Source: Trichomonas gallinae (taxonomy: Eukaryota). Taken from it: a stretch of 57,075 nucleotides of DNA. The translations under genes were made by a program, and so were the position numbers. The DNA is taken from NCBI GenBank assembly GCA_008369845.1, contig MRSU01005831.1, positions 1 to 57,075 on the forward strand. The letters run 5' to 3'. Shown piece after piece: positions 7,531 through 41,682 of the stretch; the first letter of the stretch is position 1; the number at the start of each line of letters is the position of its first letter. The notes under the pieces were generated by a model. It was not told where the DNA came from. It ran no database searches and was given only the letters and a program-made list of their open reading frames with translations.

Positions 7531-7540
7531 TTTTAAAATT

Positions 7541-7554
7541 GTGTCACTTTTACG
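7541..7554 (-). promoter_or_regulatory. AAAGTGAC-type upstream motif (CGTAAAAGTGACAC on the minus strand) just upstream of the RAD50 ATG
   Basis: Seen directly. The identical 14-mer occurs at 25080-25093 upstream of the talin-like gene. AAAGTGAC is recalled as an over-represented trichomonad core-promoter motif. Confidence 0.55.
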
Positions 7555-7758
7555 AGGAAGTTCCCTATCTTTCATTTTCGTAAAACTTCATTTCATTTTG
7601 TTTTTTTGGATCTCACAGAATAATTGAAGCTAATTTCACTAAAATCTCATTTTGCTTTTTAGTAATTTTTTTTGATTTCTGGAAGAAATTTTAGAAAATT
7701 AAAAAAATACATATGATGTAACGGATTCATATATGTGTTCATATAGAAAGCTACGTAT

Positions 7759-19124: not shown

Positions 19125-19775
19125 ATGACCTGCTGCTCATGCATGGCTCGTACCATCATTGGTATTGTTAACCTTGTTATTCTCATCATTATCGCTATCT
19201 GCTGCTGGGTTGGCCGCAACGTCTTCACAGAATACAAGCTCGACAACATCAAAGACTTCAAGAATCAGACAATTTACATCATTGTCGTCTTTATCTTTGT
19301 TGCAATCGTCTGTATCATTGGTTTCTTCATGATCTGCTGTGGTGGCTTCAAGTGCTTCCGCTGCACATACGCATTCTTCTACCTCGTCATCGTCATTGTT
19401 GAAATCATTCTTGTTGCCCTCGCTGTTAAATTCTCCAGCAAGGCTATGACCTACGCGCAGAAATTCTGGGACGAATACAAGAATCAGACTCTTGTTCAGG
19501 ATGTCGAATTGGCCCTTCAGTGCTGTGGTTTCAATGAGTCCTACACAGATGGTACAGTTTGCGGTTACAACTACACAGCTGACAACAAGACAAGTGCTCC
19601 AACATGCTATACTCAGGTTAATGATCTCGTCAAGAAGAACAAGAAGTATGCTATGATTGGTGGTATCATCATCCTCGTTCTCCAGATCATCCTCTTCATC
19701 TACGCTACATGGTACGGCTTCTGCTACAAAGATGAGGAACAGGATGATAACGAAGGTATGACAGCTCAAGCTTAA
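19125..19775 (+). CDS. Tetraspanin family protein
   Basis: Four hydrophobic TM segments, large extracellular loop with 'LQCCGF' and two further Cys, and juxtamembrane Cys clusters (palmitoylation-type). The stop codon overlaps TAAA. Confidence 0.93.
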   Translation: MTCCSCMARTIIGIVNLVILIIIAICCWVGRNVFTEYKLDNIKDFKNQTIYIIVVFIFVAIVCIIGFFMICCGGFKCFRCTYAFFYLVIVIVEIILVALAVKFSSKAMTYAQKFWDEYKNQTLVQDVELALQCCGFNESYTDGTVCGYNYTADNKTSAPTCYTQVNDLVKKNKKYAMIGGIIILVLQIILFIYATWYGFCYKDEEQDDNEGMTAQA

Positions 19776-25224: not shown

Positions 25225-28200
25225 ATGTCAGTGATTCGCTTATATACGAGTGCTGGCTTAGATGATCCTAATCCAAGAATGAACCAATACGGTGCTCAGT
25301 ACACAGGTGAGCAGTTCTTACAGTTAGCCTGCTACACACACGGTATTGAGTACAACAATACATATGTGGTTAGGTACATCTCTCGCTACGGTTATGAAGC
25401 TGTTTTGAATTATCAAGATACATTGGAGCAACAGGGGCTCGTTGACGATATGCATCTTTTTATTGCTTGGGCTTCAGATACCCGTCCACTTCCATATCCG
25501 CAATACAATTCTCAGCAACAGGTTGGATACCAATCCCAGCCACAAGTCAATTTACCGCAACTTGAACTTCCGAATTTGCAATCTCAATCTTTCCAAACAC
25601 AACAACAACAAGCATCTTACTTTAACTTTGATATTCCTCAGTTCGAATCCGGAATCATGCCACAGGAAATCCAACAATACGATTCTGTTTCTCAGTTTGA
25701 TCCTAACGCTCAAGAACAATCGGCGGATGATCTTGATGTTAGAATTAAGACTGTTGATAGCTTCGATACATCAGTTTTCGATACACAAACACAACTTGGT
25801 TTCCACGATCAGGATTCAGAAACCATCCAGGCTTACACACTGAATGGATTCCAGACAAACACATTGATGCCTGTTACATACGGTAAATCGTATTCATTCT
25901 CACAAGTTATTTCCGCAGCTACAGAATCTCTCGGACTTAGATATGAAGATTACTCAATCTTGCTTGTCTTCTCCGACGATGATATGCGCTGGTTCGATCA
26001 CAGCAAGTACCTTGAAGACTACTCCGTCTTCAACGGCATGAAATTCTGCATCTTCCCAACAGAATACCAGATCAAGGTCGAATCAACAGTTTTCAACAAC
26101 ACAAACCAATACATCATCGGTATCACAGATACAGTCGAGACAATCGTCAAGAAGATCGCTCAGGTCGAAAACATCGAAAATCCTTCCGACTTCACATTAT
26201 TCAGAGAAGAGGAAAAGGATAAGGATGGAAAGAAGAAGAAGACTTTACGTCCACTTTCCTTATTCCAGGATCTTCCACATCAGTGCGATGATTTCAAGTC
26301 TCTTGTCTTAAAGCGTCGCTTCTTCATTTTCTCTGCTGCTGATTTGGTTTCACCAGCATCTATCTTAATGGCTTTCGATGATGCCTTCGACGAAATCAGA
26401 ACAAACAAGAAGATCTACATGAGCGAAGACACAGCTGTCGAATTAACAGCTTACGCTTATGTTGTCGATCACCCAGAATTGAGGCTCGACAGCGACAATC
26501 CACCAGAAACAAAGAAGCACAGACCATATCAATACAAGAATGGAAAGAACTTCAACAAGCAGGTTTACGACTTCCTCTCCTCAAGAGGTCTTCCTGACAC
26601 AAACAACGCTGCTCGTCTTTTCATCCGTATCGCACGTACACTTCCAGGCTTCGGCATGATCCGCTTCAAGTGTTTCATCGAAGTCGACAAGGTCGAAACA
26701 AGATGCGAATGCCTTTGCACACCACACGACTTCCTTATCTACAACGAGGAAGCCAGGAAGACATACTACCGCATTCCATACCACTCCATCGTTAACCTCA
26801 CAAACGAAGAAGATGTCGTCACAGTCAACTACTCACTCCAGAGGAACGTCGGCTCAGTCAACATTCGTGCCGGCCACTCCGAAGAGATCTACGACGTCAT
26901 CCAGTCATTCCACACAATCCAGCGCAACCTCCTTCTCGAGCGTGCTCGTCTTCGTCTCGAAGGCAAGTGGCGTGGCCCAGTTTCTGAGATGGATCGTCTC
27001 AAGCTCGATACATACAACAGCATCTCAGATAAGGAGCCAAAGCAGATCGAATACGATAAGTCCTTCACAGGTAAGATGGTTCTCCAGCTCGCCATGAAGG
27101 AGCTCCGCCTTCCAGTCGAGAAGATCGACGACTACGCAGTTCTTTGCCAGATCCACACAAACAGAAAGTGGCTCAACAACGACGTCACAGTCGGTCAGCT
27201 TGGTGTCTTCGAAGGTTCCAAGCTCTACATCCTCACAAAGAAGGTAAAGATCAACGTCAAGTTCGGTGAACAGGATGAGAAGCTCTTCCTCGATCTCACA
27301 GAGCCGTGCCAGTCTGTCGTTACAGACATCTTCAAGCAGGTCAACCAGCCATATGTCCACGGTTACGCTCTCTTCCACCACAAGAACAACGAAATGGAGC
27401 CACTCGATTACAAGTACTCCATCCCAGAGCAGACATTGCACTTCCAGACACTTTACCTCAAGCGTCGTTTCTTCATGCTTTCCAAGGATGACTTTGCTTC
27501 CGTCCAGCTTTCTAAGATCGGTTACGCAGACTCTCACGACTACTTCCTCAACGCTCAGTGCCAGGCAACAGACTCCGTCCTCCAGGAACTCACAACACTT
27601 TCCCTTTTGATTGATGGAAAGGATGATGCCTACGTCCAGTCCAAGGACTTCCAGCTCGAAAAGTGGGTCCCAGCAAGCTACAAGATGAACAAGGCCTTCA
27701 AGCAGAAGTTCATCAAGGAGTTCCCATCATACCCACGCCAGGAGAAGGAAATCAACTACATCAGAAAGTACATGAAGATTGTCAGAGATGTTCCATACTT
27801 CGGTGCTGAAATGCAGAACGTTAAGTATCGTGTCATCGATCTCAAGAACAAGAAGAAAGGAAAGGATCTTAACGGTGAATTCCGTTACTGCCCACTTCTC
27901 GTTTATCTCATGGATGATAACGGCAAGCAGGTTTACAAGATCCCATGGACACTCGTTATTCGTACAAAGATCATGAAGGATTCTATCCACTTCACATTCT
28001 GCGACTCCACACACCACACATCCAAAGAAAACGTCGTCACACTCGAAATCAGAACAAAGGATATGCAGAGATTCCAGACAATGGTCGATGGCTCCCTCAA
28101 CATTTACCAGCAGATGCTTAAGGAGCGTCAGCGCGAACTCCAGAGACAGCGTGCCGAAACAGCGCAGAAGCTTGCCGGTGGCTGGCAGGATCAGTATGGT

Positions 28201-31200
28201 GTCATCCACGGTCCTATGATCGATCTCATGATCTCACCAGATCTCGGCGGCTACAAGAAGAGCAAGCTCACATTCTGGATCGATCTCGCCGCAACAGGTG
28301 ACGAACTTGTAGACCAGATGTCCAGATACTTCAAGATCGATCAGAAGCCGAACCAAGTCTACAGCGTCGTTATCATTTCTCCAGATGGTAACTTCTCATG
28401 GGTTGGTCCTAAGGAGTCTCTCCTCGACATCAGCCCAACACGTAAGTCACACCTTGTCATCTTGAACACAACACCACTCATGAAGATCACATCCGCTTCC
28501 AACATCTCCAAGACAATCAAGCTCGATATCACACAGCCACTTAAGGATCTCCTTAAGAACATCGCAGGTAAGTACGGTATCTCCAACTTCCTTGGTTACA
28601 CACTCTTCACACCAAACTCCCAGAACAACGGCGAACTCGTTCCACTCGAACTCGTCAAGTCCATCCCAGAACAGACTTACAACTTCGATGATATCGTCTT
28701 CCGCCGTCGTTTCTACATGATTTCTCGTGCCGACTTCCTCGATAACCGTGCTCTCTGGCAGACATACTCCGATATCGTCGAGCTCGTTCTCAGCGGTTCC
28801 ATGGATCTCACAAACGAACAGGTCGCTGAACTCGCATACTACCAGCTCATCGCTGAAAAGAACGAGAAGCTCGAGGCCAAGAACATCCCAGACGATCTCA
28901 ACAAGTACGTTCCAAAGAACATGAAGCTCGCAAGGACAATGGCTAAGGACCTCAAGAACTATTGCAAAGTCATGCCAATCGAAGATCCAAACGATGCTCG
29001 TAGAAAGTACATCGCTCTCGCTCGTTCAATCGAAACATTCGGCTCTGAAATCTATCAGGTCCAGTACTTCGATAACGTCAAGGGCAAGGTTGTCGCCAAG
29101 GACTGCCTCCTTTACGTCACACCATACAAGATCTACACAGTTGATCTCCAGACAAAGAAGAAGTTAATGTGCTTCGAGTACTGCAACCTCCTCGATGTCA
29201 ACCAGGTCGACGACATGCTCTCACTCACACACTGCACAAACAACGGCCACAGACTCTTCGATCTCTTCAAGAGCCCACAGGCCGCCCTCATCAAGCAGAT
29301 CATCACATCATACATCCACATTGGTATCGAAATTCTCAACAACGCTATCGCAGAAGGTCTCGATGTTGAAGAAGTCGCTACATGCTACAGAATCACCGTT
29401 AACGCATCTTATGTTCTTGCAGAAAAGAACATCAGCCAGTCTATCGCCCTCGATAGCCGCCTTAACGGCAAGCAGGTATCTGCCAGAGTCAGCAAGCTCA
29501 TGGGTCTCCACCCAAGAGGCGAGTACGCATGCATGCTCAACTTCACACCACAGGATCACAAATGGTGCTTGGACAACGAGCTCATTGGTAACCTTCGCCC
29601 ATACGAGAACATCTCAATGTCCGTCTTCAACCGCTACATGAAGATCAAGATCTCTCTCGATGGTGTCACCTACACATACCCAGCTGTTGATGTCACAAAG
29701 ACAATCAGAGAGCTCATCCCACGTCTCGCTGCTCACTTCGATATCGAGATGCCAGTTGGCTACTCAATCATCAGAGCTGACAACAATGAGCCACTCGACC
29801 TCAGATACACAATCCCAGAGCAGGCACCAATCTTCGACGCCTTCATCTTCAGACGTATCTACTTCATCACATCCAAGTACGATATGCAGAACGACTTCAT
29901 CGTCACAAAGCTTGCCGAAGACTTCAAGATGTCCGCACTCAACGGTGGTGCTATCATTTCCGAGACAGAAATGCTCGAACTCGCTGTTTACGATGTCTTC
30001 ATGCACTCCGACAACCCAGAATCTGTCAAGAAGATGGTCTTCAACTCTCTCGACGGATTCCTTCCAGCTGGTATGGCAAGCAAGCCACAATACATCACAA
30101 AGCTCAACAACATTCTCGCAACAACACCAGCTATGTCTTCTGGCAACGCTGCTCGTCAGTACATTCTCCAGGTCTCCAAGCTCAACGGCTTCGATAGACA
30201 AGTCTTCAACGCTAAGGTCATCGATGATGAGAAGAAGGAAGAACTTCCAGTCCACCTTACAGTTTCATCCACACAGCTCAAGGTTACATACGACACAACA
30301 TCCCGCGAGACAATCTCCGTCTCTATGAAGCACGTTCTCAACTGCCAGTCCATCCAGGACGATCTTCGTATCAGAATCGAATCCGACGAAGGTGATTCTA
30401 CAGTTATGAAGATCCGCACACAGGAGGCTGAGCAGATCGAGAAGAAGATCACACAGATCATCAAGTGCGTCGTCCCAGACTTGAAGACGCGCGAACAGGT
30501 CATGAAGACATGCTTCTACAACACCAACAACATCCCACACGAAGCTGGCGAAGTCCCAATTATTTTCGCTTCCAGATTCAACGAGAGAAGACCACGTGTC
30601 ATCATGATCAACCCGAACAAGACAGCAGCTCAGGCAGTCGAACTCCTTCAGCAGCACTTCTTCATCAAGGATCCATCCTACAGGATCGGCTTCTTCGCAT
30701 CCGATTACTCCTTCGGATTCCTTGGCGATGCAATGCCGCTCAAGAACATCTACACTCGCCCAGATATCGTTCTCTACTTCATGAAGCCATCAACAGAGTC
30801 ATACATCGAGTCTGCTCTCAACTTCATTACCAAGCATAAGATCCAGATTGATGATCCAATCAACACAATCTGCCAGACAATCCTTGGCCAGCTCGGCATG
30901 GGTGTTGAAGATGGCTACACACTTTACACACCAGACTTCACACCACTCGATATCGCTCTCTCACTTCCATACCAGACAGACATGATCTGGGATCTCTACC
31001 TCAGACGCCGCTTCTACGTCTTCACATACCAGTTCTTCGACAAGCCAGAGAACATCAGCTCACTCTACGACGATTGCAAGCTCGCTGTCACAAGCGGCTC
31101 AATCCCAACAACAGAGGATCTTGCAGCATATCTCGGTATCTACTCCGTTTATGCTCAGATTGCTTCTGTCTCTGACTTCAACGCTCACCTCGAGAAGTTC

Positions 31201-34200
31201 GGCACAGCCAGCGTTCTCCCAATTGCATTCCAGAACTCTGAGAATGCTATCAAGAAGGTCGACACAATCAGCCGCTCCATCATCCCGATCAGCGCTCCAG
31301 ATGCTCAGGCAAAGTACATCGCTGAAGTGTGCCAGCTTCGCGGCTTCGGTGCTGAATACCACGATGTCGAGTTCAAGACAGCCTTCAAGGACTGGCGCCC
31401 AGGTGTTCTTTCACTTTCTCCATTCTTCATCCAGGTTGAGACAGGTGGTAAGATTGTTGATACAATCGATTACACAAAGATCATCCACTACTACCCAGAC
31501 GAGACTGGATGCATCATCCTTCGTTACTACAATGATAACAACTTCATCAACTTCATCCAGATCAGATCTCCACACACAAACCAGATCTTCACATACATCA
31601 ACACACTCGCCCACTTCATGAACCAGTACGGCCACTTGCTCTCCATCGATGAAATCCGTGCCATCCTTCTCAAGCTCAAGAACAACCCGAACGGCGGAGA
31701 ACTCGGTTATGGCCAGGATTACGATCCTGGACTCTTCCAGTTCGACAACATGGACTTGACATCATTCGATACTGATAACCTCAAGATCGAAGATATCAAC
31801 CTCGACTACCTCGAAAAGAACAGAGACTACGACGACTACACATTTGGAGGCAATGATGTTCAGGTCCAGTTCGACCTCCATGACGCTCCAGATGCTGTCA
31901 TGGCTGCTTACAACGATCCAAGCAACTGGTGGAAGGCCAACCAGCTCGGCCACAGCATCAACAAGTCTAAGAACGCTATGGAGAACATCGAGAGATGCCT
32001 CCGCCAGATCATGGACGACTTCAACAAGATGACACCAGAGCAGTTCAACGCTCGTCTCAACGCTATCGACGATATGATGGCCCTTATCAACCCAGACGAT
32101 CTCGGCGATGACTTCAAGGCTGAGTATGCTAAGCTCAAGGATCTCATCAAGGGTCTCAGAGACTTAGGCAGAATGATCGAACAGTCCGATCAGGAACTCT
32201 ACAGATACCAGGGCCAGATCGAGGATATGATCAAGGATGCCCTCGGTCACTGCCCGAACCTCAAGAAGCTCATCGAACTCCGCGCACAGCAGGTTGCCAA
32301 GGATAACCAGACACCACTCACACCAGTCTCAAGATCCCTCATCGCTCTCACAGATCTCCAGGACAAGCTTACATGCGATCTTCTTAGGAACCTCGACAAG
32401 CTTAAGGGACTTGGATTCGATACACGTGCTCTTATCCGCAACTTGCAGAACTCTGCTGATACATTGACACGTCTTGCTGCTAACTTCACAGATGCTACAG
32501 ATCCAAAGGTTCTCGATCAGCACATCATTCCACAGCTTGAGCAGCTCGGCAACCTTATGACACTCCTTCAGCAGCTCATCGAGAAGGCCAACGTTGATGA
32601 TCCACAGCTCCGTGAGCTTCTTGCTACACTCGCAGGTGGCAGAGAAGCTGTCGAAGCATCTTTGGTTGACTTCTCCAACAGATCTAAGCTCGCTGCTGGT
32701 GATCAGAACGCTACACTCCTCAACAACAGGAAGGCCGTCAATGCTACACTTCTTAACCTTATCAAGGCCAAGAAGTACATCGACGAGAACCTTGGCAAGA
32801 TGCCAGCTGATCTCAAGAAGGAGGCTCAGGACCTTTCTCAGATCCTCACAAACGCCGCCCTCGCTCTTGCTGTCGATCCAAACAACACACTTCCATCCCA
32901 CCAGGCTATGGATGCACTCAGACTCCTTCTCGGCAAGCTGAACGGCAAGAAGAGCCCAGCTTTGAAGGGCACAATCTCTGACCTCGGCATGTTCCTCGAC
33001 GAGCTCGAAGCTGCCCTCCGCGCCACATCATTCATCAACATCATCCCAGCTAACGTCGATAAAGTTGTCGATGATGCTATGATCATGATCAGACGCTTCT
33101 CTGCTCTCAACACAGAAGAGTGGGCATCTCGTGACAAACCAGGCCTTGCCTCAACAGAGAAGGCCGTCACAGATCTCAAGACAAACGTTGATCTCATCGA
33201 GAACCACATCAAGGAGCTCCGCAAGAACATGGTCAACGGTGCAGCTCAGAGACAGATGCAGGTCGACCTCCTCAGACTCGCAAACGAGCTTCCAAACATG
33301 CAGCAAGCTGTCGAGCTCATCTTCAAGAACACAAACGATAACTCATTCCAGGTTATCCTTGAGCGTCTCATCACAGATCTTGACGCCGCCCTCTACGATA
33401 TGCCACCGAACGAGGACATTGGCCGCTGCGCACACATCGAGAAGTACCACAAGGCTATGACTGCTGTTGCTAACATCATGAACACATCCCACAGGACAAT
33501 GCAGCTCGAGGCCATGAAGAAGCACCCAGCAACAATCGCCAAGCTTGACACAATCCTTGACAAGGTTGCTGACTTCTACACAAACCTTGTCCGCGATCGC
33601 GCTGAACTCCACGAGCATCCATTCGCTAAGGAGACAATCAATGAGGCTATCCAGGATCTCGAGAAAGTCTCCAAGGTTATGAACCTTCTCAGACTTCCAG
33701 CCACAGAAGTCTCTGAGATCACACACAACAACGAACTTGACAACGGCATCACAGATGCTATCAAGGCCATCAACATTGCTGTCGCTGCTCTCAATGATGC
33801 TCCACTTACAGTTTACCGCCTTCCACCAACAGCCGAGGCAATCAAGAACGTCAAGGATCAGACGAACCAGTACATCAAGCAGCTCGAGGCACTTGCTAAG
33901 CAGGATGCCATCGCTAACAACAAGTCTCATGCTGACAAGGTCAACAAGGAGCTTGAATACATGAAGAAGAAACTCGCTCAGATGAACCAGCTCAAGCCAT
34001 ACGATATCCAGCAGCTCTACAACATCCTCGAGAAGATGCTCCAGCATGCCGAGAGACTTCCATCCAAGCTTTCCAACCTTCCATCCACACCAGGCCCATC
34101 ACCAGAGGCAATCGCCAAGCCAGAAGTTGCTGCTCTTCGTAACGTCCTCAAGGTTACAATCCCAACACCAGAACACGCCACAAGAGAAATCCTTGAGTGC

Positions 34201-37200
34201 ATCGACCCAACCGACAATCTCATCAAGGCACTCGAGAACCTCAAGAAGGACAAGGATGTCGCCAAGAACAAGGAGATGATGGCTGCTCTCGATGCTTGGA
34301 TCAAGGCCCTCAAGGCTGGAGAGAACATGCTCCGCTCTGTTCCAAAGTCTGGCAACACAGTCCAGAGCCTCAAGGCACTTCTTCCACAGCTCGTTGGCCT
34401 CAACAACGACGTCCAGAATGTTCCAAGCGTCATCAGGAAGGAACTGGATCAGAAGCTCATGGACAAGCTTCTCGATACACTCGGCCTTGCTAACGCTAAG
34501 TTGTCACAGGCTGTCACATGCGTCCGCAACCTTCCAACTAAGGGCACAGTCAACGCCGACATCAACTTGTTCCGCCGCTTCGATAACGACAACGAACTCG
34601 ATGAAGCTATCCCAGAGATGGCCCAGCAGTTCAGCGACATTTCTCAGCTCATCAAGTCCATTGCCGAAATTCCACAGCTCGGCAACCGCCCGAACACAAA
34701 GATGCTCATCGACGAAATGGCCGCCCTCCTCAACCAGCTCTCTATCGATGTCAACTCAGCCAAGGCTGATGAGAAGAAGCTCCTTCCAGTTCTCAACAAC
34801 TCCAGAGACCGCCTTGCCCAGGTTGCTGCCAACTCCGAGCTTGTTTCTCCAATCGTTGGTGTTCCAAAACTTCCAGAAATCGCTAAGAATGTCTCTACAA
34901 ACTCCCAGACAATCAGCCGCCTTCTCGAGAAGCCACACTTCAACGCCCAGAAGACAAAGGAGTTCACAGCTCTCATCGAGCCACTCCTCAAGAAGCTCGC
35001 CGAGGCCCTCAACAACCAGTGGTACCTCCAGAACGCTAACACACCAGCGTTAGCTCCAATGAAGGAGCTCCCATCCAACACACAGGGCTGGCTCAACAAC
35101 ATCAAGGGTGCCAAGCCAGGTGCTGCCCAGCGTATCTGCGACGATATCCACACAACACTCTCCAACCTTATCGGCCTCATCATGGAGTACCCAGAGCTCA
35201 ACAACATCGCCAACGCCATCTTCAACATCCTCGATGCAACAGGCAAGTACACATCCACATCCAAGGGATCTGGCTTCTCTACACAGCTCTATCCAAAGAC
35301 AAGAGTTGTTCCACCAGAGATCCTCTCACAGGCACTTGGATTGCTTTCCGAGTTCCTTGCCGGCAACACATCCAACCTTCCACCAAACGTTCTTGCTGCC
35401 CTCGAAGATGTTCTCATGTCCATCGCTGATAAGGCAGAAATGCTTCAACCATTCGTCAAGTACGCAGCTCAGCTCCTCGCTCCACAAGTGGCAAGTGGCG
35501 ACCCAGTCACAGCTGCTCGTGCTGCCCTCATCGCTGCTCTCACATCCGACAATCCAGAAGCTAGAGCTGCCCTCATCGAGGACCTCGCTGTTCGCAATTA
35601 CGTCCGTACAGCCAACGCTCTCAACAACCTTGCCACAGAAGTTGAATCCCTCAACGGCAACTACCCAGAGGAAGTCGACTACAGACTCAGCGCCCTCAAG
35701 CACGCCATCGCTGTTGCCGATACTAAGCTTCTTGTCAAGTGCGGCTCCATCTCTGCTGCTATCATCCTTCTCGACCCACTCCACAACGTCCAGCAAGCTG
35801 CCAGACTTCTCATCCAGTCAGCCGGCCGCGCCAAGCTCGACAACGAGTTCTCCAACCTTCCAGCAGCCCTCAACGACTACGAGACATGGCTCTACGAGTC
35901 TGACATGGCCCTTACAAACTTGTTCAACGGTCAGGTCGACTCACTCCTCGTCAACCTCGAGCAGGCAATGTCCGACGACACAGCTCACGCACTTCCAAAG
36001 ACTGCTCAGAAGTTCGTCCGCGACATGGTTGTCCCACTCAAGCGCAAGGAGCGTTTGATGACAATCAAGTGGGAGGATATGGCCAACGAAGCCAAGACAT
36101 ATCTCCAGTTCACAACAGATACACTTCCAGCTATCAAGTCCTCCTCCGTTGTCTCTAACGGCCGTGAGAACGTCATAGCAATCGCTGATGCCATCAACAA
36201 GATCAACCCAGCCATCCGTATGTGGTCCGCAATGGCTAACAAGATCGATGAGCCGAAGTTCCGTTGCCAGACAGAAGCCGATCTTGGCAACTACGTCGCC
36301 AATGGAAACAGACTCAACAATCTTGCCACAAATCCAGGCGTCTTCGCTACAGAGGAAGGCCGCCTCGAGACATGCATCCACGACGCAATGTGGGCTCACT
36401 CACTCGCCAAGTTCGAGCCAAAGACAAAGGATAAGGTTGACAACATCAACCGCCTTGTCAACTCCCTCAACAAGTCAATGGCAAGCAGCCCACTTGTTAC
36501 AAAGCAGATGCTCGGCATGCTCTTAGACAAGCTCGGTGAGATGCTCAACGAGATTGTCAAGACATACCCAATCGACTTCTCCAAGCAGTTCATGGACGAC
36601 ACAGCCAAGGAGTTCGATATGGATCTCATCACTGACAAGGAATGCCTTGCTGCTGCCAAGGTCATCAAGGCAGAGCTCGAGCGCTCCAAGAAGCACGTCG
36701 ATGCTACAAAGAACGAGAAGCAGGTCAAGAAGCAGGACGGCACAAATGTAATCCCAAGATCCGTCCTCAACGTCAATACAGCCAACGAAGAGAAGCCATC
36801 TGGCCGCGCTGCACTCGAGAACCTCGCCGCTGAAACATTCTACCAGTTCGAGCTTCAGACACGTCTCGCCGAACTTCAGCAGCTCCTTCTCCAGCTCTAC
36901 CCAGATCTCATCAAGTTCCTTGAGAACCCACAACAGGTCCAGGCCGCCCTCTCGCAGCTCGATGCTGGTGATCTTGAGAGAACAGCCAACGAAATCAACA
37001 ACATGCTTGGCTTACTCAACGATCCACAGAAGTTCGACAAGTATGCTAAGGGACTTTCTCAGGAGCAGGTCTTCAACGAGCTTCTCCTCCTTAGACACTA
37101 CTCAGATGCTCTCCAGAAGCAGCCAGTTAGAAATGCTTACAACACAGCAGAGATCATGAAGTGGGTCCAGGAGAACCCAGCTTCTGAAGCAGACCCAGCT

Positions 37201-40200
37201 CGCGCCATCCAGAAGATGTCTGCTGTTGAGCAGCTCCTTCAGACACTCATGGCCCTCAAGTTCGCCGCCGCAACAAACAACCCGAAGGCCGCCAAGTTCG
37301 CTCGCACTGAGGAAGGCCAGAACGTTCTTAGACAGAACATCCCACAGCACGACTTGATCCAACAGCAGCAGTCCATCACACAGCAGCTCGGATTCATCAA
37401 CCTTCCAGAGTCACTCAAGCTCATCCACTCTCAGATGTCCCCAGAAGAAATCCTCAACCAGGCCAGAATCATCAACTCTGCCATCGACACACTCACAAAG
37501 AATGCTGACAAGATCAACCCAGAGAACCTCACACAGCAGGAACTTCTCAAGGAACTCTTCGCTCAGCAGATCCAGCAGGCAAAGGAGAACCCAAGCACAT
37601 TCGGCAACCACTACGTCGACCAGGAGCTCACAGAGAATGCCCTCACATTCCTCGACAACACCCAGGACAAGCTCGCCATCATGCGTGCCATTCATGCTAT
37701 GGCCAACCCATATACAGGCGTTCCAAACAAGCCAGGCAAGCCAGTCCTCGCAAAGACACTCGACACTGTCGCTAACCAGGTCAACAACCCAACCAACGAA
37801 CTTCCAAAGCTTAACGGTGCTGAGCAGGAGGCTGTTCAGTACGCTATGGCAGTCCTCTCCAGCCCAGAGTTCCTCAAGTTCGCTCCAAAGCGCAATGAGT
37901 CCGTTTCATCCGCCAACGCTACAACAATCACTTCTCTTGCCAACCAGCTCACACCAGCTTCTGGCAATGATCTTTTCGTTGCGCCAGCCGCCGCAGGTGT
38001 CAACAACTCCTACGAGAAGAATGATATGGTTACAAACGCTCTCCAGTTCGCCACACTCCTTAACAACATCAAGAAGGCTCTTAACGCTGTTGCCCCAGGC
38101 GTTAAGCCTGCCGCTAAGGATGCCCACAAGGCTCATGTTATTGAGGAAATCGAGAACTTCAAGAACACACCACTCAAGGACTACAACGCAAAGATCAAGG
38201 CCATGAAGCCAGACGAGCAAGCTACACTCCTCGCCGTCATTGATGGAACACTCGCTACACTCAATGACGCTAATACCAAGCTCAACGGCTCTGACTTCCG
38301 CAACTTCATCTTCGACAAGGCTGCCCTCCTCGCCATGCAGCAGAAGGGCACACCAGACCCACTCTCCGCCGCCAAGATCGAAGAGCTCTCGCAGCAGGCC
38401 GCCAAGCGCCGCAAGGAAGTTGACATGGGTCTTAAGCTCAGCGACCTTATCATCAAGCGTGGCAAGATCACAGATGTTCCACCAGCTACAACAGTTGGTA
38501 AGGATGCTATGAAGGCTTCCATGGATGAAGTCCTCAAGCAGCTCGAAATGTCATTCAACGCCCTCAACGGCCACCTCGGTCGCTTCAACGATGATGAGCT
38601 TGCTAACCAGCAGGCGGTCCTTCTCAGCACAGGTATCCTTCAGCACTCCGTCAACTTCGACACCATCCAGCAGCTCGCCGATGCCCAGCTCCAGAACCAA
38701 CTCCTCAGAGGCAGCTCCAACTCTGTCCTCAACTCCATCAAGTTCATGGAGGAGCAGCAGAACCTTCTTGAGAAGCTTCTCAACATTGCCAAGAAGATCA
38801 ACGCTATCATCAAGGATGCCAAGGCCGGCCAGTACTCTCTCCAGGAGTACGCTCAGGCTCAGGATGCCATCGCCACAATGTGCGGCATCTCCGACGAGCA
38901 GCTTGACCTCTTCATCGCTTCACAGAAGAAGGAGCAGCTCATCTGCCAGGCAGGCCAGATCGCTGAGATCATTGCAATGATCAACAACTGCGCCAAGCAG
39001 CCAATCACAGACTTCCTTGTCAACATCCCAGAGTTCGATCTTTCAGTCCGTGCTAACAACGAGACACCATCTAACCACCAGCTCGCAACAGCAGAGTCCA
39101 ACCTCTTCGCTGCCATCCTTAGACTCCTTCCATCCATGTCTATGGTTCCAATCGCTGAGTGCAAGAACATCCTTTCTACAGAGACACAAACAGCAGGTGT
39201 TCTTCTAACAAGACTCCTCAACCACAAGGGTACATCATACCCAATCGACGCAGCTACACTCCTTCAGTTCATGCCACAGCTCTGCGCAGCCGCCATTCGT
39301 GTCATCCCATCACTCCCAGAGCCAGTCCGCAAGCTCATTGGTGCCTCCGCCACAGACTTGGCCATCTCCGCCGCCAAGATCTCAACAACAGGCGCCAACC
39401 TTGCCGATCCAAAGGCTTCTCAGGAGTTCTACAAGAACGTCGAGAAGCTCCTTACAGCTATCCGCGCTCTCAACGCCATCTGCTCCGAGCAGGGTATCGA
39501 ACTCAAGAGTATCGATGCTCTCGCCAACGTCAAGCGCTCCATCGACACAAAGGATGTTGATGATATCGCTATGTCCCTCATCGATACACATGCCATCAAC
39601 GCTGCCAACACAGCTTCCAACACTAAGGATGCTCCACTTGATGCCCTCAAACAGCCACTTGCTGATGTCGAAGGACCAACATTCGAGATCCAGTCAAGAC
39701 AGGTCACAATCACTCCAGAGCTCGACAGCAAGCTTACAGCCCTCAAGCCGAAGCTCATCGAGGTCATCTCCGCCCACACACCAGATCCAATCAAGGAGAT
39801 CAACTCCATCCAGAACATTAGAACAGCTCGCGATGGCCTCCTCGACAAGCGCGCCAAGTTCCAGACTGGCGTTAACAGCTTCGTCAGATCAGTTTCCCGC
39901 AAGGACCGCAAGCTCGTCAAGAATGCCATCACAGACATTCTTACAACAGTCTCCACTGGCGAGTCTATGGCTGCCCGCTCTCTCATCGTGACAAACGCTG
40001 CCAACCCAGGCAACTTCTCCGACCTTGTCAGCAAGTTCGCCATGTCCGTCTCATCTCTCAAGGCTATCGAAGACTTATCCACAGACACATCCGCCAACTC
40101 CACAACTGTCCGCAGAACAACACGTTCACTCAACAGAATGATCGACTCACTCATCGATATGCTCGAAGATGCTGAGACACCACAGTGGACAGAGAAGCCA

Positions 40201-41682
40201 ACGAAGCCAATTGATTGCGCCAAGCTCGAGGTCCTCAAGTCCCTCGTCGGCACAATCCAGGTCCTCATGGGTGCAGTTGCCGCTCACAGCAGTGCTAAGA
40301 TCCCAGAAACATTCGCAGAGAGCCTTAAGAAGTGCTTACCACAGTTGAAGTCTGCTCTTGAAGGCGTCAAGAAGAGTTCTCAAGCAATCGAGCCCATCAA
40401 CACAGATAAGAACGCTTACATCGCTTTCAGCAAGGACGTCAACGATTACATCGCCAGCAACGAGGAGCTCTCCAACAACCTTTCTGACATCACACTCCAG
40501 AGCTTGCTTGACGGCCTCTCAAAGATCGCGTCCGCATCACACGCCACAATGGCTTCCCTCAACAGACTCACAGATGTTGAGATCGAAGAGCCAGATCTTG
40601 AAGCCGCTGACTTGCTTCCACAGCACTTTACAATGCCCCCAGTCCCATCCAACATCACCCAATCTCTTGCAGACCAGGCCCAAGCACTCGCCAAGGCTGC
40701 CGCCGAAGTCAAGAACTTCGAGAAGACATTCTTCACGAACGCAGCTGCCAAGGATAACAAGAAGACAGCCAACTCTCTTGTCGAGTACACGAAGTCCATG
40801 AAGGCCGCCATCGAGAGGATCCTCGGTGTTTCCGCCACAACGATGACCCTCAGCCACCAGACAGCCCTCACAAACAGTGCTTCCTCACTCGTCAACAGCA
40901 TGGATTCACTCGTCACAGCCCTCAGGAACAGATTCCTCCTCAGAGGCGACTGGAAGAACTCCTCAGAAGAGGCCAAGCAGACACTCGGCGCCGAGTTAGA
41001 CAACGCCGTCAAGCTCGCTAACGAAGCAGTAGAAATTGCCCGCCGCGAAGAAGCAGCGAACGATGCCTACACAAAGAAGCTTCGTGCCGCCCTCAAGCCA
41101 CTCCAGACAGCATCCTCCAAGGTCGAATCACAGCTCCAGGCTGCCCAGGAGCTCCCAACATCCATGTCCAGAGAATGGGCCCTCCAGATCCTTTCTCTCG
41201 GCAGTGCCCTCGCCAAGGCTACAACAAAGATCCTCCTTCACTCCAAGGAGCACCCATCTGCCAACTCCAATGCTCATGCAGACATGGGCGAGAACGTTAC
41301 AGCCGAACTCGGCAAGCTCTCACAGGCCGTCGAAAAGATTCTCGGCGGTGCTGAGGAGCCAGAAGCAATCGTCATGACTGTAATGGACGCCCTCGGCGCA
41401 ATCTGCGCCAAGTTCACAAAGGGCTCTGGCATCGAAGACCAGGGCCTTCTCGAAGCCTTCAACATTGTCGCAAAGACTTCCAGGAATGTCAAGGATACCG
41501 CAGAAGGCATCCTTTCCCAGAAGCGCGCGGCAAAGGAGAAGTCTACAGCCAGGGCTGGAGAAATCCAGGCAAGGAAGCAGTCCAAGCCAGTCCTCTTAAA
41601 GAGACTCGACCTCGAAGCTCGTGTTATCAGAGCCCGTACAATTCTCGAGCGTTATGAGGCCGCAGTCAACGCTATGCAGTAA
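25225..41682 (+). CDS. Giant talin-like protein (5485 aa): orphan F0 + 5x(F0-F1-F2-F3 FERM head) + helical rod + I/LWEQ-like C-terminus
   Basis: Uninterrupted 16.46-kb ORF with strong C-ending/AAG/ACA/CCA codon bias. The talin F1 end motif (L..TL.EQ....L.LRRKFF) and F2/F3 junction motif (Y...AR.L..YG) each recur five times. The rod is Ala/Leu-rich and amphipathic. The C-terminus aligns by eye with the talin I/LWEQ helices and dimerisation helix. Confidence 0.85.
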   Translation: MSVIRLYTSAGLDDPNPRMNQYGAQYTGEQFLQLACYTHGIEYNNTYVVRYISRYGYEAVLNYQDTLEQQGLVDDMHLFIAWASDTRPLPYPQYNSQQQVGYQSQPQVNLPQLELPNLQSQSFQTQQQQASYFNFDIPQFESGIMPQEIQQYDSVSQFDPNAQEQSADDLDVRIKTVDSFDTSVFDTQTQLGFHDQDSETIQAYTLNGFQTNTLMPVTYGKSYSFSQVISAATESLGLRYEDYSILLVFSDDDMRWFDHSKYLEDYSVFNGMKFCIFPTEYQIKVESTVFNNTNQYIIGITDTVETIVKKIAQVENIENPSDFTLFREEEKDKDGKKKKTLRPLSLFQDLPHQCDDFKSLVLKRRFFIFSAADLVSPASILMAFDDAFDEIRTNKKIYMSEDTAVELTAYAYVVDHPELRLDSDNPPETKKHRPYQYKNGKNFNKQVYDFLSSRGLPDTNNAARLFIRIARTLPGFGMIRFKCFIEVDKVETRCECLCTPHDFLIYNEEARKTYYRIPYHSIVNLTNEEDVVTVNYSLQRNVGSVNIRAGHSEEIYDVIQSFHTIQRNLLLERARLRLEGKWRGPVSEMDRLKLDTYNSISDKEPKQIEYDKSFTGKMVLQLAMKELRLPVEKIDDYAVLCQIHTNRKWLNNDVTVGQLGVFEGSKLYILTKKVKINVKFGEQDEKLFLDLTEPCQSVVTDIFKQVNQPYVHGYALFHHKNNEMEPLDYKYSIPEQTLHFQTLYLKRRFFMLSKDDFASVQLSKIGYADSHDYFLNAQCQATDSVLQELTTLSLLIDGKDDAYVQSKDFQLEKWVPASYKMNKAFKQKFIKEFPSYPRQEKEINYIRKYMKIVRDVPYFGAEMQNVKYRVIDLKNKKKGKDLNGEFRYCPLLVYLMDDNGKQVYKIPWTLVIRTKIMKDSIHFTFCDSTHHTSKENVVTLEIRTKDMQRFQTMVDGSLNIYQQMLKERQRELQRQRAETAQKLAGGWQDQYGVIHGPMIDLMISPDLGGYKKSKLTFWIDLAATGDELVDQMSRYFKIDQKPNQVYSVVIISPDGNFSWVGPKESLLDISPTRKSHLVILNTTPLMKITSASNISKTIKLDITQPLKDLLKNIAGKYGISNFLGYTLFTPNSQNNGELVPLELVKSIPEQTYNFDDIVFRRRFYMISRADFLDNRALWQTYSDIVELVLSGSMDLTNEQVAELAYYQLIAEKNEKLEAKNIPDDLNKYVPKNMKLARTMAKDLKNYCKVMPIEDPNDARRKYIALARSIETFGSEIYQVQYFDNVKGKVVAKDCLLYVTPYKIYTVDLQTKKKLMCFEYCNLLDVNQVDDMLSLTHCTNNGHRLFDLFKSPQAALIKQIITSYIHIGIEILNNAIAEGLDVEEVATCYRITVNASYVLAEKNISQSIALDSRLNGKQVSARVSKLMGLHPRGEYACMLNFTPQDHKWCLDNELIGNLRPYENISMSVFNRYMKIKISLDGVTYTYPAVDVTKTIRELIPRLAAHFDIEMPVGYSIIRADNNEPLDLRYTIPEQAPIFDAFIFRRIYFITSKYDMQNDFIVTKLAEDFKMSALNGGAIISETEMLELAVYDVFMHSDNPESVKKMVFNSLDGFLPAGMASKPQYITKLNNILATTPAMSSGNAARQYILQVSKLNGFDRQVFNAKVIDDEKKEELPVHLTVSSTQLKVTYDTTSRETISVSMKHVLNCQSIQDDLRIRIESDEGDSTVMKIRTQEAEQIEKKITQIIKCVVPDLKTREQVMKTCFYNTNNIPHEAGEVPIIFASRFNERRPRVIMINPNKTAAQAVELLQQHFFIKDPSYRIGFFASDYSFGFLGDAMPLKNIYTRPDIVLYFMKPSTESYIESALNFITKHKIQIDDPINTICQTILGQLGMGVEDGYTLYTPDFTPLDIALSLPYQTDMIWDLYLRRRFYVFTYQFFDKPENISSLYDDCKLAVTSGSIPTTEDLAAYLGIYSVYAQIASVSDFNAHLEKFGTASVLPIAFQNSENAIKKVDTISRSIIPISAPDAQAKYIAEVCQLRGFGAEYHDVEFKTAFKDWRPGVLSLSPFFIQVETGGKIVDTIDYTKIIHYYPDETGCIILRYYNDNNFINFIQIRSPHTNQIFTYINTLAHFMNQYGHLLSIDEIRAILLKLKNNPNGGELGYGQDYDPGLFQFDNMDLTSFDTDNLKIEDINLDYLEKNRDYDDYTFGGNDVQVQFDLHDAPDAVMAAYNDPSNWWKANQLGHSINKSKNAMENIERCLRQIMDDFNKMTPEQFNARLNAIDDMMALINPDDLGDDFKAEYAKLKDLIKGLRDLGRMIEQSDQELYRYQGQIEDMIKDALGHCPNLKKLIELRAQQVAKDNQTPLTPVSRSLIALTDLQDKLTCDLLRNLDKLKGLGFDTRALIRNLQNSADTLTRLAANFTDATDPKVLDQHIIPQLEQLGNLMTLLQQLIEKANVDDPQLRELLATLAGGREAVEASLVDFSNRSKLAAGDQNATLLNNRKAVNATLLNLIKAKKYIDENLGKMPADLKKEAQDLSQILTNAALALAVDPNNTLPSHQAMDALRLLLGKLNGKKSPALKGTISDLGMFLDELEAALRATSFINIIPANVDKVVDDAMIMIRRFSALNTEEWASRDKPGLASTEKAVTDLKTNVDLIENHIKELRKNMVNGAAQRQMQVDLLRLANELPNMQQAVELIFKNTNDNSFQVILERLITDLDAALYDMPPNEDIGRCAHIEKYHKAMTAVANIMNTSHRTMQLEAMKKHPATIAKLDTILDKVADFYTNLVRDRAELHEHPFAKETINEAIQDLEKVSKVMNLLRLPATEVSEITHNNELDNGITDAIKAINIAVAALNDAPLTVYRLPPTAEAIKNVKDQTNQYIKQLEALAKQDAIANNKSHADKVNKELEYMKKKLAQMNQLKPYDIQQLYNILEKMLQHAERLPSKLSNLPSTPGPSPEAIAKPEVAALRNVLKVTIPTPEHATREILECIDPTDNLIKALENLKKDKDVAKNKEMMAALDAWIKALKAGENMLRSVPKSGNTVQSLKALLPQLVGLNNDVQNVPSVIRKELDQKLMDKLLDTLGLANAKLSQAVTCVRNLPTKGTVNADINLFRRFDNDNELDEAIPEMAQQFSDISQLIKSIAEIPQLGNRPNTKMLIDEMAALLNQLSIDVNSAKADEKKLLPVLNNSRDRLAQVAANSELVSPIVGVPKLPEIAKNVSTNSQTISRLLEKPHFNAQKTKEFTALIEPLLKKLAEALNNQWYLQNANTPALAPMKELPSNTQGWLNNIKGAKPGAAQRICDDIHTTLSNLIGLIMEYPELNNIANAIFNILDATGKYTSTSKGSGFSTQLYPKTRVVPPEILSQALGLLSEFLAGNTSNLPPNVLAALEDVLMSIADKAEMLQPFVKYAAQLLAPQVASGDPVTAARAALIAALTSDNPEARAALIEDLAVRNYVRTANALNNLATEVESLNGNYPEEVDYRLSALKHAIAVADTKLLVKCGSISAAIILLDPLHNVQQAARLLIQSAGRAKLDNEFSNLPAALNDYETWLYESDMALTNLFNGQVDSLLVNLEQAMSDDTAHALPKTAQKFVRDMVVPLKRKERLMTIKWEDMANEAKTYLQFTTDTLPAIKSSSVVSNGRENVIAIADAINKINPAIRMWSAMANKIDEPKFRCQTEADLGNYVANGNRLNNLATNPGVFATEEGRLETCIHDAMWAHSLAKFEPKTKDKVDNINRLVNSLNKSMASSPLVTKQMLGMLLDKLGEMLNEIVKTYPIDFSKQFMDDTAKEFDMDLITDKECLAAAKVIKAELERSKKHVDATKNEKQVKKQDGTNVIPRSVLNVNTANEEKPSGRAALENLAAETFYQFELQTRLAELQQLLLQLYPDLIKFLENPQQVQAALSQLDAGDLERTANEINNMLGLLNDPQKFDKYAKGLSQEQVFNELLLLRHYSDALQKQPVRNAYNTAEIMKWVQENPASEADPARAIQKMSAVEQLLQTLMALKFAAATNNPKAAKFARTEEGQNVLRQNIPQHDLIQQQQSITQQLGFINLPESLKLIHSQMSPEEILNQARIINSAIDTLTKNADKINPENLTQQELLKELFAQQIQQAKENPSTFGNHYVDQELTENALTFLDNTQDKLAIMRAIHAMANPYTGVPNKPGKPVLAKTLDTVANQVNNPTNELPKLNGAEQEAVQYAMAVLSSPEFLKFAPKRNESVSSANATTITSLANQLTPASGNDLFVAPAAAGVNNSYEKNDMVTNALQFATLLNNIKKALNAVAPGVKPAAKDAHKAHVIEEIENFKNTPLKDYNAKIKAMKPDEQATLLAVIDGTLATLNDANTKLNGSDFRNFIFDKAALLAMQQKGTPDPLSAAKIEELSQQAAKRRKEVDMGLKLSDLIIKRGKITDVPPATTVGKDAMKASMDEVLKQLEMSFNALNGHLGRFNDDELANQQAVLLSTGILQHSVNFDTIQQLADAQLQNQLLRGSSNSVLNSIKFMEEQQNLLEKLLNIAKKINAIIKDAKAGQYSLQEYAQAQDAIATMCGISDEQLDLFIASQKKEQLICQAGQIAEIIAMINNCAKQPITDFLVNIPEFDLSVRANNETPSNHQLATAESNLFAAILRLLPSMSMVPIAECKNILSTETQTAGVLLTRLLNHKGTSYPIDAATLLQFMPQLCAAAIRVIPSLPEPVRKLIGASATDLAISAAKISTTGANLADPKASQEFYKNVEKLLTAIRALNAICSEQGIELKSIDALANVKRSIDTKDVDDIAMSLIDTHAINAANTASNTKDAPLDALKQPLADVEGPTFEIQSRQVTITPELDSKLTALKPKLIEVISAHTPDPIKEINSIQNIRTARDGLLDKRAKFQTGVNSFVRSVSRKDRKLVKNAITDILTTVSTGESMAARSLIVTNAANPGNFSDLVSKFAMSVSSLKAIEDLSTDTSANSTTVRRTTRSLNRMIDSLIDMLEDAETPQWTEKPTKPIDCAKLEVLKSLVGTIQVLMGAVAAHSSAKIPETFAESLKKCLPQLKSALEGVKKSSQAIEPINTDKNAYIAFSKDVNDYIASNEELSNNLSDITLQSLLDGLSKIASASHATMASLNRLTDVEIEEPDLEAADLLPQHFTMPPVPSNITQSLADQAQALAKAAAEVKNFEKTFFTNAAAKDNKKTANSLVEYTKSMKAAIERILGVSATTMTLSHQTALTNSASSLVNSMDSLVTALRNRFLLRGDWKNSSEEAKQTLGAELDNAVKLANEAVEIARREEAANDAYTKKLRAALKPLQTASSKVESQLQAAQELPTSMSREWALQILSLGSALAKATTKILLHSKEHPSANSNAHADMGENVTAELGKLSQAVEKILGGAEEPEAIVMTVMDALGAICAKFTKGSGIEDQGLLEAFNIVAKTSRNVKDTAEGILSQKRAAKEKSTARAGEIQARKQSKPVLLKRLDLEARVIRARTILERYEAAVNAMQ
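25822..31630 (+). repeat. Five tandem talin-type FERM head modules (~383-414 aa period)
   Basis: F1 motifs: KRRFF (26311), KRRFF (27460), RRRFY (28702), RRIYF (29851), RRRFY (31003). F2/F3 motifs: ARTLPGFG, VRDVPYFG, ARSIETFG, VSKLNGFD, VCQLRGFG. Confidence 0.88.

What the first reader, a model, noticed from the sequence alone, without database searches (positions are those of the whole stretch)
25225..41682. Giant 'five-headed' talin-like protein in a trichomonad
Seen: a 5485-aa ORF whose N-terminal ~2130 aa contain five tandem modules. Each module has two ubiquitin-like segments, the second ending in a [KR]R[RI][FY][FY] motif, followed by an acyl-CoA-binding-protein-like helical segment ending in a Y/F...xR.L..FG motif and a PTB/PH-like segment. 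About 3200 aa of amphipathic helices follow, and the C-terminus resembles I/LWEQ. Established: this F0-F1-F2-F3 + rod + I/LWEQ order defines talin, which in animals (~2540 aa) and amoebozoans has a single head and links adhesion-receptor tails to actin. Inference: this is a multivalent talin of more than twice the normal length in a lineage where I know of no canonical integrins. It could cluster several surface-receptor tails or PIP2 patches per molecule and form the core of an integrin-independent adhesion/mechanosensing apparatus, for example during amoeboid host-cell attachment. I know of no description of this architecture but cannot search the literature.
Basis: partly seen in the sequence, partly recalled or inferred. 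Interest (0 to 1): 0.93.

Follow-up and report, generated by a model that had tools for sequence, protein, structure and literature searches.

The report
Five-headed talin relative in trichomonads
A single 5,485-residue gene, likely from a trichomonad, encodes five talin-type head domains in a row ahead of a long helical rod, a layout shared by genes of the human parasite Trichomonas vaginalis, and it likely ties several membrane partners at once to the actin skeleton in a lineage where a 2023 review says talin has not been identified.

Summary
The ORF is real: an independent contig spans it and RNA-type contigs tile it. The last ~210 aa are predicted to be a five-helix bundle, a flexible linker and one helix. 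They match talin R13/HIP1R THATCH by structure (Z 13.4-13.8) and by profile (E 2e-7), but not by Pfam.

It is a family: 22 other five-headed proteins (three T. vaginalis genes, one T. foetus gene) and 10 single-headed 2,480-2,780-aa paralogues with the same tail. Heads group by position, so the array is old and fixed.

Caveats: the middle rod has no detectable sequence match to talin, the actin-binding KVK motif is missing, and the F3 tryptophan used for integrin tails is absent in all 126 heads. Actin binding, ligands and an adhesion role are inferred, not shown.

Ten literature searches found no description. Verdict: a new architecture of a known protein kind, in a lineage not known to have it.

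The parts
25225..41682 (+). Intronless ORF, 5485 aa, five-headed talin-like protein
   Evidence: spanned by an independent contig and tiled by RNA-type contigs
25231..25473 (+). Extra lone F0-like (ubiquitin-fold) domain, aa 3-83, followed by a Q/D-rich linker
   Evidence: hhalign probability 98.8, E 5e-17 to the heads' F0; 23 N-termini aligned; reversed control 0.1
25819..26925 (+). Head 1 (F0-F1-F2-F3), aa 199-567; short lysine-rich F1 loop
   Evidence: FERM_M E 3e-4, FERM_f0 E 0.014; class profile 99.8 to talin heads; not modelled
26989..28110 (+). Head 2, aa 589-962; the most basic head class
   Evidence: FERM_M E 2e-4; model aligns with kindlin-3 Z 26.4 and talin head Z 24.4; mean F2F3 charge +5.1
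28216..29328 (+). Head 3, aa 998-1368; best sequence match to talin
   Evidence: phmmer: the top 20 of 23 PDB hits are talin, best E 6e-11; FERM_M E 3e-7, IRS E 0.006
29389..30480 (+). Head 4, aa 1389-1752
   Evidence: no Pfam hit; class profile 99.7 to talin heads; same secondary-structure order as heads 2 and 3 in the model
30550..31620 (+). Head 5, aa 1776-2132; the most acidic head class
   Evidence: FERM_M E 3e-8; class profile 99.6; mean F2F3 charge -6.3; not modelled
31642..31914 (+). Acidic head-rod linker, aa 2140-2230 (17.6% Asp)
   Evidence: composition
31912..41055 (+). Helical rod, aa 2230-5277; aa 4601-5277 predicted as tandem helical bundles
   Evidence: model pLDDT 86.2; bundle at aa ~5120-5273 aligns with talin rod bundles, Z 14-16; aa 2230-4600 not modelled
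36769..37530 (+). Two clear copies of a ~125-aa repeat found only in five-headed members, aa 3849-4102
   Evidence: HMM hits in 17 of 19 five-headed and 0 of 10 single-headed proteins; no hit in controls
41056..41550 (+). Last five-helix bundle, R13/THATCH-like, aa 5278-5442
   Evidence: VIA-align: HIP1R THATCH 1R0D Z 13.8, rmsd 3.5, 160 aligned; talin R13 2JSW Z 13.4, rmsd 3.1, 159 aligned; hhalign E 1.9e-7
41584..41676 (+). C-terminal single helix, like talin's dimerisation helix, aa 5454-5484
   Evidence: single helix after a low-confidence linker; heptad match to talin's helix with near-invariant L, E, V, R

Best explanation
This is a divergent talin relative with five heads instead of one, and it likely works as a membrane-to-actin linker: the heads would bind lipids, small GTPases and the inner tails of surface proteins, while the tail is predicted to dimerise and would grip actin filaments. 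Shown here: the domain order, the talin kinship of every head, a conserved five-head family and transcription. Predicted: the fold of heads 2-4 and of the last 885 aa. Inferred: because each head position has its own conserved character, the five heads probably read different partners, so the array would act as a coincidence detector or a pre-built adhesion-site scaffold rather than five copies of one grip. If it dimerises like talin it would present ten heads. The partners are probably not integrin-type NPxY tails, and the actin contact must differ in detail from animal talin. The rod would bear load as in talin; force-driven unfolding is untested.
For: Heads: PDB sequence search, Foldseek (top 12 rows are talin heads, E 5e-21 to 5e-19, kindlin next at 1e-14) and profiles all point to talin. 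Tail: five-helix bundle, linker and single helix as in talin's actin-binding domain (PMC2168396 passages). The best structural rows for that bundle are HIP1R THATCH and talin R13. The last 200 aa pick talin's I/LWEQ region out of a whole-talin profile: score 40.2 against next-best 30.3, reversed 29.3, 20 shuffles at most 19.0. In one of two near-equal registers the last helix keeps L2509 and E2512 in 25 of 25 and R2519 in 24 of 25 sequences; E2512 contacts actin in the cryo-EM structure (PMC11831117 passage). Ten single-headed paralogues of 2481-2782 aa, the size of ordinary talin, share head and tail. Heads 1, 2, 4 and 5 each form a 23-of-23 clade. No transmembrane segment is evident (maximum hydropathy 1.77, inside head 1). 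Dictyostelium uses talin without integrins, and its talin B binds RapA (PMC9197732 passages).
Against: Pfam I_LWEQ and the talin-rod models hit neither the window's rod nor any of 10 single-headed paralogues. None of 14 rod windows of the single-headed profile exceeded probability 9.2 against talin, and the last window did not pick I/LWEQ. The strong E 1.9e-7 falls to probability 32, E 5e-4 when the whole talin is the target. Z 13-14 is near the level that the tool calls common for helical bundles. The KVK actin-binding columns are gaps in 14-15 of 15 five-headed sequences, W2389 is lost in 25 of 25, and R2513 and R2526 are not kept; mutating K2443, V2444 or K2445 cuts actin binding to 43-54% in talin. 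The F3 tryptophan W359 is present in 13 of 14 canonical heads and 0 of 126 parabasalid heads (its role in integrin binding is recalled). A relaxed vinculin-site pattern (recalled consensus) finds 0 sites in three family members against 6 and 2 in two canonical talins. The only localisation datum seen is T. vaginalis TVAG_252220 listed as 'Unknown' in a hydrogenosomal membrane fraction (PMC3174187).
Confidence: 0.6

Rival explanations
1. A talin-derived linker used in membrane traffic rather than adhesion. The heads would sort cargo tails or lipids at endocytic or phagocytic sites and the THATCH-like tail would couple the coat to actin, as HIP1R and Sla2 do.
For: The last bundle fits HIP1R THATCH as well as talin R13 (Z 13.8 against 13.4), and Sla2's C-terminal region is Foldseek rank 5. 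Integrin-binding residues are absent. The T. vaginalis orthologue came out of an organelle membrane fraction.
Against: The head is talin-type F0-F3 and the single-headed paralogue has talin's size and order. The fraction's authors note carry-over of cytoskeletal proteins. This rival shares the molecular mechanism of the best explanation and differs only in site.
Confidence: 0.2
2. A talin descendant that has lost actin binding. It would be a multi-FERM scaffold whose rod and tail serve only as spacer and dimeriser, or bind a parabasalid-specific fibre instead of actin.
For: KVK, W2389, R2513 and R2526 are not kept; no vinculin-site pattern; two five-headed members (P0022 = TVAG_107970, and P0023) are not hit by the family's own tail profile; the rod carries a repeat unknown elsewhere.
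Against: The last helix is among the best conserved parts of the family, with invariant L and E and a near-invariant R on one heptad face, the face proposed to touch actin in talin. The bundle-linker-helix layout is kept in both subfamilies.
Confidence: 0.15
3. Convergence: F0-bearing FERM heads were fused independently to unrelated helical bundles, so the likeness to talin beyond the head is a common fold.
For: No detectable sequence match over the middle rod; no Pfam rod or I_LWEQ hit; head 2's best structural score is to kindlin, not talin (Z 26.4 against 24.4).
Against: The tail profile aligns end to end with I/LWEQ and its final helix, and HMMER with the family tail profile finds the I/LWEQ region of canonical talin P0060 at 22.6 bits. 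Head, size and tail all coincide with talin in the single-headed paralogue.
Confidence: 0.05

Closest known systems
Talin (animal TLN1/TLN2; Dictyostelium TalA/TalB; PDB 3IVF, 6VGU, 2JSW, 8VDO)
   Same: F0-F1-F2-F3 head, rod of helical bundles, last five-helix bundle plus linker plus single helix.
   Different: Five heads plus a lone extra F0; 5485 aa against ~2540; middle rod not alignable; lineage-specific rod repeat; KVK, W2389 and W359 absent; short F1 loop.
Single-headed parabasalid paralogues (T. vaginalis TVAG_101030 and TVAG_329890, T. foetus TRFO_11406, H. meleagridis GPJ56_010551), annotated as hypothetical or FERM-domain proteins
   Same: Same head type and same tail (147-221 bits to the five-headed tail profile); the last ~880 aa and parts of the mid rod align.
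   Different: One head, 2481-2782 aa, no ~125-aa repeat. They are not labelled talin in the names seen.
HIP1R / Sla2 (THATCH proteins; PDB 1R0D, 9HDD)
   Same: THATCH-like last bundle (Z 13.8).
   Different: No FERM heads (recalled: ANTH head and coiled coil).
Kindlin (PDB 6V9G, 5XPY)
   Same: Compact F0-F1-F2-F3 fold; best structural score for head 2.
   Different: No rod or actin-binding tail (recalled); sequence searches rank talin first.
Dictyostelium FrmA and MyTH4-FERM myosins (multi-FERM proteins)
   Same: More than one FERM domain per chain (FrmA: recalled as two talin-like FERMs; two-FERM proteins P0129 and P0140 seen). FrmA controls turnover of adhesion foci (PMC9197732 passage).
   Different: Two FERMs, not five in close tandem, and no talin rod or THATCH tail.

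Membership tests
Talin | N-terminal head of F0-F1-F2-F3 | tested here: met
   Five copies; profile probability 99.6-99.9 each; Foldseek top 12 rows talin; heads 2-4 modelled at pLDDT 87.6
Talin | A single head per chain | tested here: not met
   Five heads plus a lone F0. This is the novelty; the single-headed paralogues meet the feature
Talin | Rod of tandem four- and five-helix bundles | tested here: met
   aa 4601-5485 predicted as tandem bundles, best matches talin rod domains Z 14-16; aa 2230-4600 not modelled
Talin | Rod homologous in sequence and order to R1-R12 | tested here: inconclusive
   0 of 14 windows above probability 9.2; no Pfam talin-rod hit
Talin / THATCH (I/LWEQ) proteins | C-terminal five-helix bundle followed by one helix | tested here: met
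   Model; 1R0D Z 13.8 and 2JSW Z 13.4; profile match
Talin / THATCH (I/LWEQ) proteins | I/LWEQ signature residues and the KVK actin-binding motif; Pfam PF01608 | tested here: not met
   Block-1 I/L largely kept; W lost in 25 of 25; block-3 E depends on alignment; Q replaced; KVK columns are gaps; no PF01608 hit
Talin / THATCH (I/LWEQ) proteins | Binds F-actin | not testable with these tools
   Needs co-sedimentation or cryo-EM
Talin | Dimerises through the last helix | tested here: inconclusive
   Heptad pattern matches in two near-equal registers, scores 13.8 and 11.6, others at most 6.7; no experimental data
Talin | F3 residues for NPxY receptor tails (R358/W359; role recalled) | tested here: not met
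   W in 0 of 126 parabasalid heads against 13 of 14 canonical heads; aromatic in heads 2, 4, 5 (13, 11, 15 of 23) but rarely in heads 1, 3 (1, 2 of 23)
Talin | Cryptic vinculin-binding helices exposed by force | tested here: inconclusive
   A recalled consensus pattern finds 0 sites in 3 family members, 6 and 2 in two canonical talins; presence of vinculin in the lineage not tested
Kindlin | FERM with F0 and an inserted PH domain, no rod (recalled definition) | tested here: not met
   Heads are ~365 aa with no insertion in F2, and a 3250-aa rod follows

The most novel reading that the evidence does not exclude
Parabasalids, including Trichomonas vaginalis, carry an unrecognised talin system far outside animals, fungi and amoebae. 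It has an ordinary one-headed talin and an ancient five-headed form whose heads each read a different membrane partner. The five-headed form would be a self-contained, integrin-free adhesion core that couples host-cell attachment to actin during the amoeboid transition.
Probability: 0.35. Interest if true: 0.88.

Novelty: new variant of a known kind. Interest (0 to 1): 0.74.

Why it matters
A 2023 review says talin has not been identified outside Amoebozoa and opisthokonts, leaves open that talin-like molecules exist in other crawling cells, and calls the crawling of T. vaginalis without myosin II a mystery (PMC10846614 passages). This finding names five candidate genes in T. vaginalis and two in T. 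foetus that are annotated only as hypothetical or FERM proteins, so the question of how these parasites couple their surface to actin becomes directly testable. A divergent talin in metamonads would also push talin's origin deeper; a talin homologue in the brown alga Ectocarpus is already mentioned in print (10.1101/2020.04.29.069435 passage). A fixed array of five specialised heads is a natural experiment on multivalency, which animal cells reach by clustering single-headed talins.

Tried and rejected
Mis-assembly or recent tandem duplication: rejected. The modules are 14-24% identical, with one weak DNA self-match, an independent contig spans the ORF and 22 other proteins have five heads.

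'One rod repeat per head' as five autoinhibition docks: rejected, because copy number runs from 0 to 6 while head number stays five.

Dimer prediction of the last helix (two copies of 40 aa) gave no answer, score 0.07 with the alignment not used; it counts neither way.

phmmer of the last 393 aa against PDB found nothing meaningful. A word-based search with the last 593 aa found no relative, but covered only lengths 1039-2965. ESM Atlas ranked I/LWEQ first for the tail at 0.89, a lead only, and gave no usable hit for two mid-rod segments. The search with the single-headed alignment returned 5 close members and nothing named outside parabasalids; it is insensitive, so the range in other metamonads is open.

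The tree does not resolve head order or origin: head 3 is not one clade (18 of 23) and the split from canonical talins has support 0.22.

An error of mine: the 'R358/W359' rows were anchored on the wrong column and are replaced. MAFFT and hhalign place the last helix one heptad apart; both registers are reported.

No genome is held, so integrins, vinculin and paralogues in this organism were not searched. Three look-ups of earlier scan findings gave nothing on this protein.

Full report
Observation. The ORF at 25225-41682 (+) encodes 5485 aa without an intron. Its GC content is 47-53%, against 26-39% in most flanking bins. Their limits are aa 199-567, 589-962, 998-1368, 1389-1752 and 1776-2132.

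The gene is not an assembly artefact. A 17,952-bp contig of run X1 differs at 431 letters yet spans the ORF, with one in-frame 3-base deletion among the listed indels. Run X2 (RNA is a guess) has long contigs that follow the window's ORFs and leave most bins between them empty. In this gene its pieces run from 25234 to 41647; one covers heads 2-5 (27247-30777), one bridges head 5 and the rod (31442-32262) and one covers 33607-41647. Run X3, on record as metatranscriptomic RNA, has depth in 26 of 30 bins. No single RNA contig spans the whole gene. The first ATG is supported because homologues begin with the same N-terminal domain.

Heads. Pfam finds FERM_M in 4 of 5 modules, 2 above cut-off. 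Module 3 against PDB gives talin for the top 20 of 23 hits, best E 6e-11. Profiles of each position (23 sequences each) match a profile of 14 canonical talin heads over 335-344 columns at probability 99.6-99.9. A model of heads 2-4 (aa 586-1757, 23 sequences) has pLDDT 87.6 and repeats the same order of two ubiquitin folds, a helical lobe and a PTB-like lobe three times. Foldseek ranks 12 talin heads first, then kindlin. VIA-align gives head 2 Z 26.4 to kindlin-3, 24.4 to talin and about 20-21 to ERM proteins; head 3 appears in lower rows and head 4 in none of the 50 listed. Heads 1 and 5 were not modelled.

Tail. Pfam and phmmer see nothing in the last 393 aa. A model of aa 4601-5485 (27 sequences, pLDDT 86.2) shows tandem helical bundles, a last five-helix bundle, a low-confidence linker and one final helix. 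That is the layout of talin's actin-binding end (PMC2168396 passages). Foldseek's best match is full-length talin, E 9e-4, the only one at E<=0.001. For the last bundle alone the best rows are HIP1R THATCH (Z 13.8, rmsd 3.5, 160 aligned) and talin R13 (Z 13.4, rmsd 3.1, 159 aligned). Among 48,161 representatives the next rows on that range are plant enzyme inhibitors at Z 11.4 or less. These Z values are close to what helical bundles reach by common fold. The sequence evidence is independent: the family's last 890 aa align with the I/LWEQ region of six canonical talins at probability 93.7, E 1.9e-7. Against the whole talin profile the last 200 aa still choose residues 2292-2507 of 2543, with score 40.2 against 30.3 next, 29.3 reversed and at most 19.0 in 20 shuffles, though at probability 32. 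The middle rod gives no match in 14 of 14 windows.

Family. A profile of the five modules found 414 proteins at E<=0.001 among 1.84 billion representatives; I examined the best 150. Twenty-two besides the window's own have five heads (the 99%-identical P0001 left out). Of these 23, 17 carry the same tail, 4 stop before it and 2 are not hit by the tail profile. Ten single-headed proteins of 2481-2782 aa share head and tail. I saw no full-length member with two, three, four or six heads in these 150. Of 20 proteins looked up by name, 6 had one; two more names came. Five-headed: T. vaginalis TVAG_252220, TVAG_445430, TVAG_107970 and T. foetus TRFO_05648. Single-headed: TVAG_101030, TVAG_329890, TRFO_11406 and Histomonas GPJ56_010551. 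The names seen are 'hypothetical', 'FERM domain-containing', 'Second domain of FERM family' and 'KREV interaction trapped 1-related'. The window's organism is inferred to be a parabasalid; related DNA occurs in bird metagenome runs.

History and specialisation. In a FastTree of 140 heads over 363 columns, heads 1, 2, 4 and 5 each form a clade of 23 of 23 (support 0.90, 0.99, 0.90, 1.0), head 3 groups 18 of 23 and the single heads 11 of 11; deeper order is unresolved. Identity within a position is 20-25%, between positions 15-19%. Linker lengths are position-specific, with medians of about 23, 36, 21 and 26 aa. So the array arose before Trichomonas and Tritrichomonas split and has stayed at five. 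Mean F2F3 charge runs from +5.1 (head 2) to -6.3 (head 5). The W359 column is aromatic in about half or more of heads 2, 4 and 5, aliphatic in heads 1 and 3, and never tryptophan (0 of 126, against 13 of 14 canonical). The five-headed rod also has a ~125-aa repeat, 1-6 copies in 17 of 19 members and none in 10 single-headed ones.

Mechanism. The most likely reading is a membrane-to-actin linker: heads at the membrane, tail on F-actin as a dimer, rod between them bearing load. The domain order and kinship are shown, the folds are predicted and every binding step is inferred. The position-specific heads suggest different partners per head. Ubiquitin-like folds could bind Rap-type GTPases, as Dictyostelium talin B does. 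The weak point is actin binding. The KVK motif and W2389 are missing, and the last helix keeps talin's L2509, E2512 and R2519 only in one of two near-equal registers, losing R2513 and R2526. I put talin homology at about 0.9 and the linker function at cortical or contact sites at 0.6. The rivals are an endocytic or phagocytic linker (0.2), a scaffold that no longer binds actin (0.15) and convergence (0.05).

Literature. Ten searches were run. 'talin' with 'parabasalid' gave 0 papers. 'talin' with 'Trichomonas' gave 17 listings, of which I read passages in three, none reporting a trichomonad talin. None of the 40 of 178 papers listed for other parabasalid names contained 'talin'. TVAG_252220 appears once, as 'Unknown' in a hydrogenosomal membrane proteome (PMC3174187, passages). 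All 14 papers were read as keyword passages only, with no supplements. Kusdian 2013 and Sebe-Pedros 2010 were not seen, so an earlier mention cannot be excluded. FrmA's two FERM domains are recalled.

Verdict. It is best filed as a new variant of talin, and it fails several residue-level tests of membership. Interest 0.74: surprising architecture, a lineage where talin is said to be unidentified, and named genes in a tractable parasite, held back by the lack of functional evidence.

Noticed in passing
window 13501-17573 (+): A chain of seven short same-strand ORFs (73-235 aa) separated by small gaps, possibly one long gene broken by frameshifts; run X1 barely covers this stretch.
   Followed up: no
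window 53206-56685 (-), 8788-9837 (+), 19125-19775 (+): A CYFIP/Sra1-type gene (FragX_IP E 8e-125), an ELMO-domain gene and a tetraspanin lie in the same window. All relate to actin or the cell surface, but proximity means little in a eukaryote.
   Followed up: no
window 1372-3411 (+), 3640-7575 (-), 46308-47405 (+), 49249-51936 (-): Ordinary neighbours: a cullin, a Rad50-like protein, a protein kinase and a TPR protein.
   Followed up: no
P0075 (3808 aa): A talin head joined to a vinculin-family C-terminus (PF01044 E 1e-66). Several 3400-4900-aa proteins in the list end in a similar sequence (for example P0056, P0076, P0087, P0091). Source organisms not looked up.
   Followed up: partly
P0127 (1083 aa): VIT and vWA domains fused to a talin-like F2-F3 module.
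   Followed up: no
P0112, P0114, P0136 (1708-2287 aa): Further divergent single-headed proteins with weak or no Pfam hits, not matched by the family's tail profile; possibly other divergent talin-like lineages.
   Followed up: no
window 31002-31061 and 33340-33372: Another contig in runs X1 and X2 matches both short stretches, which may point to a paralogue in the same or a related organism.
   Followed up: no
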